Assembly (NCBI RefSeq): GCF_002854065.1
Contig: NZ_CP024147.1
DNA length: 64,000 nucleotides
DNA from: Escherichia coli
GTDB taxonomy: Bacteria; Pseudomonadota; Gammaproteobacteria; Enterobacterales; Enterobacteriaceae
Reading direction: 5' to 3' (one strand)
Of this stretch, positions 27,041 through 40,963 are shown piece after piece; position 1 is the first letter of the stretch, and the number at the start of each line of letters is the position of its first letter. The notes under the pieces are model-generated. The model saw only the letters and a list, made by a program, of their open reading frames with translations. It had not been told where the DNA came from and did not search any database. The position numbers and the translations under genes were made by a program.

Positions 27041-27610
27041 TTATGCGCCCTGCCAGCGGGCAAAGAGATCTTCAGGAAGGGTTATTGCAAACTGGTCAAG
27101 AACACGATTAACCGTCTGATTTATCACATCATCAAGGGATTGCGGGCGATGATAAAACGCCGGAACGGGAGGCATAATCACCGCACCGATTTCTGCTGCC
27201 TGAGTCATTAAACGCAGATGACCTAAGTGCAATGGTGTTTCACGCACGCAGAGCACCAACGGGCGACGCTCTTTCAGCACCACATCTGCCGCACGGGTCA
27301 GTAAGCCATCAGTATAGCTATGGACAATGCCGGACAGGGTTTTGATTGAACAGGGTAAAATCACCATCCCCAGTGTCTGGAAAGAACCGGAAGAGATGCT
27401 GGCGGCAATATCGCGCGCATCATGCGTGACATCAGCTAATGCCTGCACTTCGCGCAGGGAAAAATCCGTTTCGAGGGATAAGGTCTGGCGCGCCGCCTGG
27501 CTCATCACCAGATGCGTTTCGATATCTGTGACATCGCGCAGAACCTGTAATAAACGCACGCCATAAATCGCGCCGCTGGCACCGCTGATGCCTACAATGA
27601 GTCGTTTCAT
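27041..27610 (-). CDS. ubiX: flavin prenyltransferase UbiX
   Basis: 189-aa product recognised as UbiX. Confidence 0.93.
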   Translation of the reverse strand: MKRLIVGISGASGAIYGVRLLQVLRDVTDIETHLVMSQAARQTLSLETDFSLREVQALADVTHDARDIAASISSGSFQTLGMVILPCSIKTLSGIVHSYTDGLLTRAADVVLKERRPLVLCVRETPLHLGHLRLMTQAAEIGAVIMPPVPAFYHRPQSLDDVINQTVNRVLDQFAITLPEDLFARWQGA

Positions 27611-27704: not shown

Positions 27705-29222
27705 TCATCCTTCGTTATGCATTTCGAGATTTTCCACTTCGTTCTGACGTTGCACTGCTTTGGCGTCGTCATTACGTAAAGTATCGAGGAAATCGAGGTA
27801 GCCCTGATCAACATCTTTGGTGACGTAGACGCCGTTGAACACCGAGCATTCAAACTGCTGGATATCCGGATTTTCAGCGCGAACGGCGTCGATCAGATCG
27901 TTCAGATCCTGGAAAATCAACCCGTCAGCACCGATGATCTGGCGAATTTCATCTACTTCGCGACCGTGGGCGATAAGCTCCGTGGCGCTCGGCATATCAA
28001 TACCGTAAACGTTCGGGAAGCGAATTTCCGGTGCCGCAGAAGCGAGGTACACTTTCTTCGCTCCGGCTTCGCGTGCCATCTCGATAATCTGCTCAGAAGT
28101 GGTGCCACGGACGATGGAGTCGTCGACCAGCAGGACGTTTTTATCGCGGAACTCGGCGCGGTTGGCATTCAGTTTACGGCGCACGGACTTACGACGCAGC
28201 TGCTGGCCCGGCATGATGAAGGTGCGGCCAACATAGCGGTTTTTAACGAAGCCCTGGCGGTACGGTTTGCCCAGAATACGCGCAATTTCCAGCGCGATAT
28301 CACACGAGGTTTCCGGAATCGGGATCACTACGTCGATATCCAGATCTTCCCATTCGCGGGCAATTTTCTCGCCCAGTTTCGTGCCCATATTCACACGCGC
28401 GCTGTAAACGGAAATTTTGTCGATGAACGAGTCCGGGCGAGCAAAGTATACATACTCAAACAGGCACGGATTGCTGACCGGATTGTCAGCACATTGACGG
28501 GTAAACAACTGCCCTTCTTCAGTGATGTAAATCGCTTCGCCCGGCGCGACGTCACGCAGGAAATCAAAGCCCAGCGTATCGAGCGCTACGCTTTCGGAAG
28601 CGACCATATATTCTGTGCGGTTCTCGTCAATATCACGTTTTCCCAGTACCAGCGGACGAATACCGTTTGGATCGCGGAAAGCAACCATACCGTGGCCGAT
28701 AATCATCGCCACACAGGCATACGCGCCGCGGATTAAGCGGTTTGTAGCAGCGATGGCGGCGAAAATGTTGTCGGCTTCCAGCGGGTAGTGGCGGAAGTTG
28801 TCCAGCTCGCTGGCGAAGATATTAAGCAGAATTTCCGAGTCGGAAGTGGTGTTGATGTGGCGGCGTTTTTCTTCAAACAGTTTTTTACGCAACTCGTGAG
28901 CGTTGGTCAGATTGCCGTTGTGGGCAAGCGTAATGCCATACGGGGAGTTAACGTAAAACGGCTGCGCTTCAGAGGCGCTGGAGCTGCCAGCCGTGGGGTA
29001 ACGCACATGACCAATGCCCATATTGCCCTGCAAACGCTGCATATGGCGAGCTTCAAATACATCGCTCACCAGCCCGTTCGCTTTACGCAAACGGAAGCAG
29101 TTATTGGCATCTATGGTGATGATGCCGGCGGCATCCTGACCGCGATGCTGAAGCACCGTTAAGGCATCATAAATCGACTGGTTAACCGGCATAACACCGG
29201 CGATACCGACAATACCGCACAT
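27705..29222 (-). CDS. purF: amidophosphoribosyltransferase
   Basis: 505-aa product starting MCGIVGI (N-terminal nucleophile Cys); recognised as PurF. Confidence 0.95.
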
Positions 29223-29258
29223 ACGTCTTTTTCCTCGTTAAGCCACATCTCAGAGCAC

Positions 29259-29747
29259 TTACGCTCTGGGCAAGAAACTTGACGAGCTTTGCAGATAATC
29301 AAAAAACCATCTGATGATAAAACTGAACTGCGGGATCAGCTGTGATTTGCTCCAGTCTTCGCTTTTCGACACCCCGGTAAAGGAGTCGAGAAAGAAGAGA
29401 ATGGCAGCAACAATCAACACACCGCGCAACGCACCGAAACAGACGCCCAGCACCCGATCGGTGCCTGACAACCCCGTTTTCTCCACCAGCTGGCCTATCA
29501 CGAAGTTCACGATAGCACCAACGATCAGGGTAGCGATAAACAGTACCGCGATGGCAATCCCATTTCGAACCAGTTCGTCTTCAAAGCCCGTAAACCAGAC
29601 TGACAGGTAAGTGTAGTAATGACTGGCAACAAAGAAAGCACAACCCCATGTCACCAGCGATAACGCTTCACGAACAAAGCCGCGGATCAGGCTAACCAGA
29701 GAGGAAAAAGCAATCACCGCGATTATGGCGTAATCAATCCAGACCAT
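29259..29747 (-). CDS. cvpA: colicin V production membrane protein CvpA
   Basis: 162-aa membrane product recognised as CvpA; first gene of cvpA-purF-ubiX operon. Confidence 0.92.
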   Translation of the reverse strand: MVWIDYAIIAVIAFSSLVSLIRGFVREALSLVTWGCAFFVASHYYTYLSVWFTGFEDELVRNGIAIAVLFIATLIVGAIVNFVIGQLVEKTGLSGTDRVLGVCFGALRGVLIVAAILFFLDSFTGVSKSEDWSKSQLIPQFSFIIRWFFDYLQSSSSFLPRA

Positions 29748-29803
29748 ATGTGTCCCACGATTTTACGCCCTGTCATCCTGTTCGGGGCGCATTCTAACAG
29801 AAA

Positions 29804-29820
29804 AAGAAAACGTTTGCGTA
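29804..29820 (-). promoter_or_regulatory. PurR operator (PUR box) of the cvpA-purF operon
   Basis: Sequence AAGAAAACGTTTGCGTA (gene strand TACGCAAACGTTTTCTT) matches the palindromic PurR box, about 60 bp upstream of cvpA. Confidence 0.75.
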
Positions 29821-29913
29821 GGGATTTCCTTCCCGCGCATCAATAAAAATGGCGCTGAAAAAATATTCAACGCCATCGACTTTTTATGCCTTTGCGGCAT
29901 CGGACAATGCGTG

Positions 29914-30362
<449 letters not shown>

Positions 30363-30369
30363 GACCGTA

Positions 30370-31032
30370 TTAATTCGGCGTATAGCCCATTACCACGCCA
30401 CTTAAGCCAGAAAGTTGCTTCAACTCACCCAGCGAACCTTTCAGCTTATCTTTCGAGGCATCCGGCCCAACCAGAATACGGGTAATTTTACCCTGCACTG
30501 GCGTGGATGGCGACGTATAAACCCGATAACCGGCACCGCGCAGCTTACCGACAATTTCATTCACTTTATCGGCATTTTTCAGCGCACCCAGTTGCACAAC
30601 ATAGGCTTTACCCGTCGGTGCAGCTTTTTCTTCCACGACCGGCTTCGGTTCTGGCTTCGGCGCAGGTGGTGCTTCAACCTTTGGTTTAGGCGGCTCCACC
30701 GGTTTCGGCTTCGGTGGGGCGACCGGTGCAGGTTCCGGTTCAAACTCGGTGTTATTGGCTGCAATAGTGGCCGGATCGAGCGACGGTGCTGCGGCATCAC
30801 CTGCCCGCACCTCTTCCGCTGCGCCTTCCGGCGGCTGCGTCGGCAACGCCTGGGTGGCGGCTGGCATCATATCAGGCTCATCGCGATCGCCCGCTTTTGG
30901 AACCAGCGGGATAGCCGCAAACTCATCCTGATAATGTTTTTTCTGCCCGTCCAGCAGCCCTGGAAGTACAATCACCCCCAGCGCCACCAGCACGATCGTG
31001 CCCACTAACCGATTCTGAAACTTACTTGCCAC
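30370..31032 (-). CDS. dedD: cell division protein DedD (SPOR domain)
   Basis: ORF-track ORF runs to 31050 (226 aa); the 220-aa form starting MASKFQNRL is what I recall; Pro/Ala-rich linker plus C-terminal SPOR. Confidence 0.88.
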   Translation of the reverse strand: MASKFQNRLVGTIVLVALGVIVLPGLLDGQKKHYQDEFAAIPLVPKAGDRDEPDMMPAATQALPTQPPEGAAEEVRAGDAAAPSLDPATIAANNTEFEPEPAPVAPPKPKPVEPPKPKVEAPPAPKPEPKPVVEEKAAPTGKAYVVQLGALKNADKVNEIVGKLRGAGYRVYTSPSTPVQGKITRILVGPDASKDKLKGSLGELKQLSGLSGVVMGYTPN

Positions 31033-39742: not shown

Positions 39743-40963
39743 TTAATCTTTCAGCTTGCGCATTACCAGCGTGGCGTTGGTGCCGCCGAAGCCGAAGCTG
39801 TTAGACATAACAGTGGTCAGTTCGCGATCGGTCGTTTCGGTCACGATGTTCAGACCCGCAGCCTGCTCGTCCAGCTCTTCAATGTTGATGCTCGGGGCGA
39901 TAAAGCCGTGTTCCAGCATCAGCAGAGAGTAGATAGCTTCCTGTACGCCAGCAGCGCCCAGAGAGTGACCGGTCATGGCTTTGGTTGCAGAAATCGCCGG
40001 GCTCTTATCGCCGAACACTTCACGGATAGCTGCCAGCTCTTTCACGTCGCCAACCGGAGTCGAAGTACCGTGGGAGTTCAGGTAATCGATTGGGGTATCA
40101 ACGCCATGCATCGCCATCTTCATGCAGCGTACTGCGCCTTCGCCAGACGGAGCAACCATGTCTGCGCCATCAGACGTTGCGCCGTAGCCAACGATTTCAG
40201 CATAGATATGAGCACCACGCGCCAGCGCGTGTTCCAGCTCTTCAACCACCACCATACCGCCGCCGCCAGCGATAACGAAACCGTCACGGTGAGCATCGTA
40301 AGTACGGGAGGCTTTTTCCGGGGTGTCGTTGTATTTAGTAGACAGCGCACCCATTGCGTCGAATTCGCAAGCCATTTCCCAGCACAGCTCTTCGCCGCCG
40401 CCAGCAAACACGATGTCCTGTTTGCCCAGTTGGATCTGCTCTACTGCGTTACCGATACAGTGTGCGGAAGTCGCACACGCGGAGCTGATGGAGTAGTTAA
40501 CGCCATGAATTTTAAACGGGGTGGCGAGGCAGGCAGAAACGCCGGATGCCATCGCTTTGGTGACCACATATGGGCCAACCGCTTTCAGGCCGCGCGGACC
40601 GCGCATTGCGTCAGCGCCGAACACCTGGAAACGCGGGGAGCCGCCGCCGGAACCTGCAATCAGGCCAACGCGCGGATTATTCTGGTAAGCTTCCGGGGAG
40701 AGGCCCGCATCAGCGATTGCCTGCTCCATAGAAAGGAATGCATAAATGGATGCGTCGCTCATAAAGCGCACAACTTTGCGGTCAATGAGGCCAGTGGTAT
40801 CCAGTTTTACGTTGCCCCAGACGTGGCTACGCATGCCGGAATCCTTCAGCTCCTGAGAGAAAGTGATCCCTGAACGTCCTTCACGCAGAGATGCCAGGAC
40901 TTCCTGCTGGTTATTACCGATGCTGGAAACAATGCCCAGGCCAGTAATCACTGCACGTTTCAT
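39743..40963 (-). CDS. fabB: 3-oxoacyl-ACP synthase I
   Basis: 406-aa product recognised as FabB. Confidence 0.95.

What the first reader, a model, noticed from the sequence alone, without database searches (positions are those of the whole stretch)
29804..29820. Canonical PurR box upstream of cvpA-purF
A near-perfect palindromic PUR box (TACGCAAACGTTTTCTT on the gene strand) sits upstream of cvpA. It is expected rather than novel, but it confirms the operon assignment and orientation.
Basis: partly seen in the sequence, partly recalled or inferred. Interest (0 to 1): 0.12.

Follow-up and report, generated by a model that had tools for sequence, protein, structure and literature searches.

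The report
Known PurR operator of cvpA-purF promoter
This is the well-studied binding site where the purine repressor PurR shuts off the E. coli cvpA-purF-ubiX operon; it is real and correctly read, and already known.

Summary
Window 29804-29820 (+) reads AAGAAAACGTTTGCGTA, which is TACGCAAACGTTTTCTT on the gene (-) strand. The window is E. coli chromosome with the gene order argT-ubiX-purF-cvpA | REP array | dedD-folC-accD.

The 16-bp core (29804-29819) is letter-for-letter the cvpA-purF-ubiX PurR motif in the published ChIP-chip map. A matrix built from the other 27 published sites scores it 21.7 bits. That is the best hit in the window, with about 0.002 expected by chance.

Published 5' end mapping puts the transcription start at window 29783. 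The box therefore covers -36 to -21, over the -35 position and the spacer of an extended -10 promoter (TGTTAGAAT). The likely mechanism is that PurR bound to hypoxanthine or guanine keeps RNA polymerase off the promoter.

The box and the -10 element are near-invariant:
- The promoter region is present once in 5425 of 5426 complete E. coli genomes.
- The box sits 53-58 nt before the cvpA start codon in all 69 usable Enterobacterales loci sampled.
- A shifted version occurs in Aeromonas.
- No box occurs in Shewanella or Idiomarina, although cvpA-purF linkage is kept there.

Verdict: already known, low interest.

One side observation remains unexplained: a conserved dyad with compensatory changes straddles the transcription start.

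The parts
29804..29819 (-). PUR box (PurR operator): ACGCAAACGTTTTCTT on the gene strand, at -36 to -21 relative to the transcription start.
   Evidence: Sequence read. Leave-one-out matrix score 21.7 bits, best in the window. Identical to the published ChIP-chip motif for cvpA-purF-ubiX. Same position in 69 Enterobacterales loci.
29791..29799 (-). Extended -10 promoter element TGTTAGAAT. The hexamer TAGAAT is at 29796-29791 (-13 to -8) and the TG at 29799-29798.
   Evidence: Sequence read. Sigma-70 -10 call 'ttctGTTAGAATgcgc' for cvpAp1 in the supplement of PMC2760140. Near-invariant across Enterobacterales.
29783..29783 (-). Transcription start of cvpAp1 (G), giving a 36-nt 5' UTR (29783-29748).
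   Evidence: Kim et al. 2012 supplement: K-12 position 2,428,821, - strand, 240 reads, UTR 36. Mendoza-Vargas et al. 2009: 5' RACE at -36 from the ATG. Converted to window coordinates with offset 2,399,038, which was checked on both the box and the ATG coordinates.
29784..29790 (-). GC-rich discriminator GCGCCCC between the -10 element and +1.
   Evidence: Sequence read. Conserved in Enterobacteriaceae. It matches the CG-rich -3/+1 'CCCG' bias reported for sigma-70-preferred promoters, a set that includes cvpA-purF-ubiX (PMC3141248).
29259..29747 (-). cvpA coding sequence, first gene of the regulated operon.
   Evidence: ORF. RefSeq annotation of an identical sequence.
27705..29222 (-). purF (amidophosphoribosyltransferase), second gene of the operon.
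27041..27610 (-). ubiX, third gene of the operon.
   Evidence: Operon named cvpA-purF-ubiX.
29839..29877 (-). Intrinsic-terminator-like hairpin (29877-29848) followed by a T-run. It ends the upstream dedD unit about 30 nt before the box.
   Evidence: Terminator scan. Conserved with compensatory stem changes across Enterobacteriaceae.

Best explanation
The 16-bp site at 29804-29819 is the operator of the purine repressor PurR for the cvpA-purF-ubiX promoter (cvpAp1) of E. coli.

When hypoxanthine or guanine is abundant, the PurR dimer carrying its corepressor binds this pseudo-palindrome. The site spans -36 to -21. It covers the place where a -35 hexamer would sit and most of the spacer of a promoter that depends on an extended -10 element (TGTTAGAAT). 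Bound PurR therefore keeps RNA polymerase off the promoter and lowers synthesis of PurF, the first enzyme of de novo purine synthesis.

Shown here: the sequence, its matrix score, its position relative to the -10 element, and its conservation.

Taken from the literature for the identical sequence: the transcription start, in vivo PurR occupancy, and in vitro binding.

Inferred from geometry and from established knowledge of PurR: that repression works by steric exclusion of polymerase.
For: - The sequence is exact.
- The leave-one-out matrix gives 21.7 bits, p = 1.9e-8 per position, top hit of the window, and no Markov control reaches it.
- The 16-mer is identical to the cvpA-purF-ubiX entry of the ChIP-chip table, whose peak is seen only with adenine.
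- PurR has been gel-shifted on a cvpA-purF fragment.
- The transcription start at window 29783 comes from two independent data sets, so the box lies at -36 to -21.
- Reviews and the ChIP paper state that PurR sites usually overlap the promoter between -35 and -10 and block initiation.
- The promoter region is single-copy in 5425 of 5426 complete E. coli genomes and at least 99% identical in 5383. The most divergent genome examined keeps the box, the -10 element and the start unchanged.
- Loci were fetched with a pattern in cvpA codons, which is blind to the upstream DNA. All 59 Enterobacteriaceae-type loci carry the box 55-58 nt before the ATG, and 58 of them have the identical 16-mer. All 10 Morganellaceae loci carry ACGAAAACGTTTGCGT (one has ACAAAAACGTTTGCGT) at 53-56 nt. 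All 10 Aeromonas loci carry ACAAAAACGATTGCGC (one ends in G) at 36 nt. Coding-region controls score at most 8.1 bits.
- In Yersinia pestis, purF rises about 4-fold when purR is deleted, and the derived motif ACGCAAWCGKTTTCS matches this box.
Against: - No binding or expression experiment was done on this exact strain. Binding is inferred from sequence identity with K-12.
- The box is interleaved with core promoter elements, so conservation alone cannot separate selection on the operator from selection on the promoter.
- A plain consensus search is only weakly significant.
- The original footprinting papers (Makaroff and Zalkin 1985; Rolfes and Zalkin 1988) are not in the held library and could not be read.
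Confidence: 0.97

Rival explanations
1. The conserved block is simply the core promoter (-35 position, T-rich spacer, extended -10), and its resemblance to a PurR site has no regulatory meaning.
For: The invariant block runs without a break from the box through TTTCTGTTAGAAT. The left half of the box sits exactly where a -35 hexamer with a 17-bp spacer would be.
Against: As a -35 element the sequence is poor (ACGCAA, 2 of 6). As a PurR site it scores 21.7 bits. PurR occupies the region in vivo and binds it in vitro. In Aeromonas the box is moved 7 nt closer to the -10 element yet is retained. Shewanella and Idiomarina keep cvpA-purF linkage without any such sequence.
Confidence: 0.01
2. The site is shared with, or mainly used by, another LacI/GalR-family regulator (for example RbsR, reported to act on purine genes) rather than PurR alone.
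For: LacI-family operators share the central-CG pseudo-palindrome design. A review notes that RbsR acts on purine pathway genes.
Against: The half-site ACGCAAAC is the PurR consensus. ChIP used PurR itself and responded to adenine. PurR binding was shown directly on this fragment. No evidence was found here for another factor at cvpAp1.
Confidence: 0.015
3. The match is a chance occurrence of a short palindrome in 64 kb.
For: With up to 3 mismatches to the consensus, 45 of 100 shuffles give a hit.
Against: The matrix gives p = 1.9e-8 per position. The site lies in the roughly 130-bp promoter region of the first purine-pathway operon. It is conserved at a fixed position across orders.
Confidence: 0.005

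Closest known systems
E. coli K-12 purF (cvpA-purF-ubiX) operator, the reference PUR box (Rolfes and Zalkin 1988; Cho et al. 2011)
   Same: Identical 16-mer. The whole 136-bp promoter region is 100% identical to K-12 BW25113 and is bounded by cvpA at its 3' end. The same transcription start follows by coordinate conversion.
   Different: Nothing in the promoter. The window comes from a strain other than K-12: its best full matches are strains 100416 and CUWW06. The differences lie in the REP array upstream.
Other PUR boxes of the E. coli PurR regulon (purT, purHD, purL, purMN, purEK, purC and others)
   Same: A 16-bp pseudo-palindrome with a central CG. This site's score of 21.7 bits is about 12th of the 28 published sites. 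It overlaps the promoter, as most of them do.
   Different: The promoter-proximal half deviates at two positions (TTTTCTT against TTTGCGT). purB and purR use downstream roadblock sites, and carAB uses a far-upstream site at -128.5.
LacI/GalR-family operators in general (lacO, galO, CytR and FruR sites)
   Same: A dimeric repressor binds a pseudo-palindrome centred on a CG step. Binding is controlled by a small molecule (established knowledge).
   Different: PurR binds DNA only with its ligand (a corepressor), whereas LacI is released by its inducer. The half-site sequence is specific to PurR.
Bacillus subtilis PurR and its PurBox
   Same: Both repress purine biosynthesis genes.
   Different: The protein is not homologous, the DNA site is different, and the effectors are PRPP and (p)ppGpp. 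It shares only the name.

Membership tests
PurR operator (PUR box) of Enterobacterales | A 16-bp pseudo-palindrome matching ACGCAAACGTTTGCGT (or ACGNAAACGTTTGCNT) with a central CG | tested here: met
   Two mismatches to the consensus. 21.7 bits with a leave-one-out matrix of 27 published sites, p = 1.9e-8. The central CG is at 29811-29812.
PurR operator (PUR box) of Enterobacterales | Lies in the control region of a purine or nucleotide metabolism gene and overlaps the polymerase binding site | tested here: met
   The box ends 56 nt upstream of cvpA-purF-ubiX and 7 nt upstream of the -10 hexamer. It spans -36 to -21 relative to the published transcription start.
PurR operator (PUR box) of Enterobacterales | Occupied by PurR in vivo and bound by it in vitro | not testable with these tools
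   Reported for the identical K-12 sequence: a ChIP-chip peak at 2,428,603-2,428,965 with adenine. An EMSA was done on the cvpA-purF fragment of an O157 strain.
PurR operator (PUR box) of Enterobacterales | The downstream genes are repressed in a purR-dependent and purine-dependent way | not testable with these tools
   Literature only. cvpA-purF-ubiX is listed among the previously characterised PurR targets. purF is de-repressed in a Y. pestis purR deletion.
PurR operator (PUR box) of Enterobacterales | Conserved at the orthologous promoter in related genomes | tested here: met
   Present in 69 of 69 usable Enterobacterales loci at 53-58 nt from the ATG and in 10 of 10 Aeromonas loci at 36 nt. 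Absent (7.2 bits or less) in 34 Shewanella loci that keep cvpA-purF linkage. Present in 5425 of 5426 E. coli genomes.
Extended -10 sigma-70 promoter | A TGn motif directly upstream of a -10 hexamer, a weak -35 element, and a start 7-8 nt downstream | tested here: met
   The sequence reads TGTTAGAAT. The best -35 candidate matches 2-3 of 6 positions. The start is the 8th base after the hexamer. The generic -35/-10 scan found nothing, as expected for this promoter class.

The most novel reading that the evidence does not exclude
The operator itself holds nothing new. The most novel reading left open concerns its immediate neighbour.

A dyad straddles the transcription start. On the gene strand, (T)GCGCCC at -8/-7 to -2 pairs with GGGCG(T)(A) at +14 to +20. 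The dyad is kept across Enterobacteriaceae, Morganellaceae and Aeromonas through compensatory changes: GCACTT/GAGTGC in Providencia, ACCTTC/GAAGGT in Arsenophonus, ATGCTTC/GGAGCAT in Proteus.

Its 5' arm lies upstream of the mapped start, so it cannot fold in the primary cvpAp1 transcript. It could be an undescribed element that acts in one of three ways:
- in read-through transcripts coming from dedD;
- in an antisense transcript;
- at the DNA level during promoter opening or escape.

Any of these would add a second control layer to purF expression.
Probability: 0.15. Interest if true: 0.3.

Novelty: already known. Interest (0 to 1): 0.05.

Why it matters
It matters little as a discovery. This is the reference operator on which PurR binding, and by my recollection the PurR-DNA crystal structures, were worked out.

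It has two practical uses. It anchors the annotation of the window: strand, operon start, and a promoter with a known transcription start. It also confirms that the first-stage reader can recognise a regulatory site from raw sequence.

The cross-species survey adds a small point. The two 'imperfect' positions of the promoter-proximal half-site are fixed across Enterobacteriaceae. That suggests they are constrained by the overlapping promoter or by tuned affinity, rather than being drift.

Tried and rejected
- The generic sigma-70 promoter scan of 29200-30450 found no promoter on either strand. The real promoter has an extended -10 element and almost no -35, so this null result says nothing.
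- Consensus matching with 3 mismatches is not significant, so I replaced it with a leave-one-out matrix.
- I tried to read the primary papers: He et al. 1990 (PMC213288), Rolfes and Zalkin 1990 (PMC526876) and Thomason et al. 2015 (PMC4288677). None is held. The start site came instead from the supplements of two other papers.
- An Rfam scan of 29200-30450 found no family in the cvpA leader, only REP-derived naRNA4 hits in the spacer.
- I looked for a relocated PurR box anywhere in the Shewanella and Idiomarina loci, including between cvpA and purF. There were no consistent hits: seven scattered sites of at least 14 bits in 753 kb.
- For the dyad at the start site, I tested which strand folds better. 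The result was mixed: the gene strand is clearly better (by about 2 kcal/mol or more) in 5 of 12 lineages, while the complement is better in E. coli and Aeromonas.
- MAFFT puts the Morganellaceae stems out of register, so I did not run the count of structure pairs on that alignment. I used per-lineage folding against shuffles instead.
- A model like pyrC/pyrD, in which start-site switching controls a leader hairpin, was rejected. The 5' arm begins 0-1 nt after the -10 hexamer, too close for any start site to include it, and the 3' arm does not cover the ribosome binding site.

Full report
**1. What is in the sequence**

Window 29804-29820 on the + strand reads AAGAAAACGTTTGCGTA.

The neighbouring ORFs on the - strand are argT, ubiX (27041-27610), purF (27705-29222) and cvpA (29259-29747). 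Upstream lie a repeat-filled spacer and then dedD, folC and accD. A 1.2-kb stretch around the site is 100% identical to E. coli chromosomes in which RefSeq annotates exactly these genes. The box ends 56 nt before the cvpA ATG.

**2. Is it more than chance?**

A plain consensus search is weak evidence. With up to 3 mismatches to ACGCAAACGTTTGCGT, 0.64 hits are expected per window. With up to 2 mismatches, 0.09 are expected.

I therefore built a weight matrix from the 27 other PurR motifs listed in Table 1 of Cho et al. 2011 (PMC3159470), leaving the cvpA entry out.
- The site scores 21.7 bits and is the best hit in the window on either strand.
- The next independent hit scores 13.5 bits.
- The exact score distribution gives p = 1.9e-8 per position, or 0.0024 expected in the window.
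- In 100 first-order Markov windows the best score averaged 15.5 and never exceeded 20.4.

Among the 28 published sites this one ranks about 12th.

As a palindrome it is imperfect. Six of 8 pairs are symmetric. The promoter-distal half is consensus, and the promoter-proximal half (GTTTTCTT) has two departures.

**3. Comparison with curated sites**

The 16-mer AAGAAAACGTTTGCGT is printed verbatim in that table for the transcription unit cvpA-purF-ubiX. The table gives K-12 positions 2,428,842-2,428,857, inside a ChIP-chip peak seen only when adenine was added. The paper lists this promoter among the previously characterised PurR targets.

An independent study gel-shifted purified PurR on a cvpA-purF fragment (PMC5829826). 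In Yersinia pestis, purF rises about 4-fold in a purR deletion, and the motif derived there (ACGCAAWCGKTTTCS) matches the gene-strand reading of this box.

**4. Promoter geometry**

The generic promoter scan found nothing, because the promoter has almost no -35 element. Two published data sets give the transcription start:
- Kim et al. 2012 report K-12 position 2,428,821 on the - strand, with 240 reads and a 36-nt 5' UTR.
- Mendoza-Vargas et al. 2009 report a 5' RACE end at -36 from the ATG for 'cvpAp1', with the -10 call ttctGTTAGAATgcgc.

The offset between K-12 and window coordinates is 2,399,038, and it fits both the box and the ATG. It puts +1 at window 29783. The resulting layout is:

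| Element | Window coordinates | Position relative to +1 |
|---|---|---|
| PUR box | 29819-29804 | -36 to -21 |
| TG of the extended -10 | 29799-29798 | -16, -15 |
| TAGAAT hexamer | 29796-29791 | -13 to -8 |
| Discriminator GCGCCCC | 29790-29784 | -7 to -1 |

The left half of the box sits exactly where a -35 hexamer with a 17-bp spacer would be. There the sequence ACGCAA matches TTGACA at only 2 of 6 positions.

The ChIP paper and reviews state that PurR sites usually overlap the promoter between -35 and -10 and block initiation. The geometry here fits that. Steric exclusion of polymerase is an inference from position and from established knowledge of PurR. It was not tested here.

**5. Conservation**

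*Within E. coli.* The 136-bp promoter region occurs once in 5425 of 5426 complete genomes and is at least 99% identical in 5383. The most divergent genome examined differs only in the loop of the upstream terminator and at one base further upstream. Its box, -10 element and start are unchanged.

*Across species.* I searched the species-representative genome collection with a degenerate pattern for the first codons of cvpA. This pattern cannot see the upstream DNA. I scanned the 250 nt upstream of each ATG with the matrix:

| Group | Loci | Box | Distance to ATG |
|---|---|---|---|
| Enterobacteriaceae-type | 59 | Identical 16-mer in 58; one has a single central A-to-T change | 55-58 nt |
| Morganellaceae | 10 | ACGAAAACGTTTGCGT (Arsenophonus nasoniae: ACAAAAACGTTTGCGT) | 53-56 nt |
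| Aeromonas | 10 | ACAAAAACGATTGCGC (one ends in G) | 36 nt |
| Shewanella | 34 | None (7.2 bits or less) | - |
| Idiomarina and others | 6 | No comparable site (highest score 12.0 bits, 182 nt upstream) | - |

In Aeromonas the last three bases of the box supply the TGn of the extended -10 element. Shewanella and Idiomarina keep purF directly downstream of cvpA, and no relocated site appears anywhere in those loci. Coding-region controls scored at most 8.1 bits.

In the alignment, the block TACGCAAACGTTTTC[T/G]TTTTCTGTTAGAAT is near-invariant even where the flanks have diverged. Operator and promoter are interleaved, so conservation alone cannot separate them. The retention of the box in Aeromonas at a different register argues that the box itself is under selection.

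**6. Verdict**

This is the classical purF operator, so the finding is already known and of low interest.

One modest addition: the two non-consensus positions of the proximal half-site are fixed across Enterobacteriaceae. One of them is 'repaired' in Morganellaceae.

**7. Side observations**

*(a) A dyad straddles the start site.* On the gene strand, (T)GCGCCC at 29791/29790-29785 pairs with GGGCG(T)(A) at 29770-29764.
- Other lineages keep a hairpin at the same place with different sequences: Providencia GCACTT/GAGTGC, Arsenophonus ACCTTC/GAAGGT, Proteus ATGCTTC/GGAGCAT, Aeromonas CTGCG/CGCAG.
- Folding a 34-nt segment against 500 shuffles gives per-lineage fractions of 0.004 to 0.29.
- Combining one representative each of six clades by Fisher's method gives about 3e-4. 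This is my own arithmetic on the numbers, and the clades are not fully independent.
- The 5' arm is upstream of +1, so the primary transcript cannot form the hairpin.
- Strand preference is unresolved, and no Rfam family matches.

I leave this unexplained.

*(b) The discriminator.* The GC-rich discriminator ending in CCCG fits the sigma-70-preferred, ppGpp-sensitive promoter class described by Maciag et al. Their sigma-70-preferred set includes cvpA-purF-ubiX.

*(c) The upstream terminator.* An intrinsic terminator-like hairpin at 29877-29848 followed by a T-run closes the dedD unit just upstream. It is conserved with compensatory changes.

*(d) The cvpA-dedD spacer.* It is an array of REP units with a 91-nt period. 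Four of them match Rfam naRNA4 above its gathering score.

*(e) A second published PurR motif.* The weak 'fabB-mnmC' motif ACCAAAGCGATGGCAT also lies in the window, at 40546-40561.

Noticed in passing
window 29764-29791 (- strand): A conserved dyad straddles the cvpA transcription start. (T)GCGCCC at -8/-7 to -2 pairs with GGGCG(T)(A) at +14 to +20. Compensatory changes keep it in Providencia, Arsenophonus, Proteus and Aeromonas. The 5' arm lies upstream of +1, so the hairpin cannot form in the primary transcript. Strand preference is unresolved and no Rfam family matches.
   Followed up: partly
window 29784-29790 (- strand): The GC-rich discriminator GCGCCCC, followed by the start G, resembles promoters that are negatively controlled by ppGpp and preferred by sigma-70. 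cvpA-purF-ubiX is in the sigma-70-preferred in vitro set of PMC3141248. Stringent control of this promoter is an inference and was not tested.
   Followed up: partly
window 29839-29877 (- strand): An intrinsic-terminator-like hairpin (12 pairs) followed by ATTTTTATT ends about 30 nt upstream of the PUR box, presumably closing the dedD unit. It is conserved across Enterobacteriaceae with compensatory stem changes. Its T-run lies at about -64 to -56 of cvpAp1, where an UP element would sit.
   Followed up: partly
window 29889-30400: The cvpA-dedD spacer is a tandem array of REP/BIME units with a 91-nt period. Four copies match Rfam naRNA4 (RF02564) above its gathering score on the - strand, and there are two partial copies. 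The many short ORFs listed there are repeat artefacts. A published RpoN gSELEX peak (K-12 2,429,072, about window 30034) falls inside this array.
   Followed up: no
window 40546-40561 (- strand): ACCAAAGCGATGGCAT is identical to the weak 'fabB-mnmC' PurR ChIP motif of Cho et al. 2011 and lies in or next to fabB. It scores 13.1 bits, below the best score expected by chance in a window this size, and it was part of the matrix training set. The sequence alone therefore does not support it.
   Followed up: partly
window 29784-30041 (+ strand; K-12 2,428,784-2,429,041): A published in vitro transcription array reports that the intergenic region upstream of cvpA is transcribed in the direction opposite to cvpA. 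The scan found no obvious + strand promoter.
   Followed up: no
L009, L021, L038 and the other Aeromonas loci, 36-52 nt upstream of cvpA: In Aeromonas the PurR box (GCGCAATCGTTTTTGT on the gene strand) abuts the -10 element TAGACT, so its last three bases, TGT, double as the extended -10 TGn. It sits 7 nt closer to the -10 element than in E. coli.
   Followed up: no
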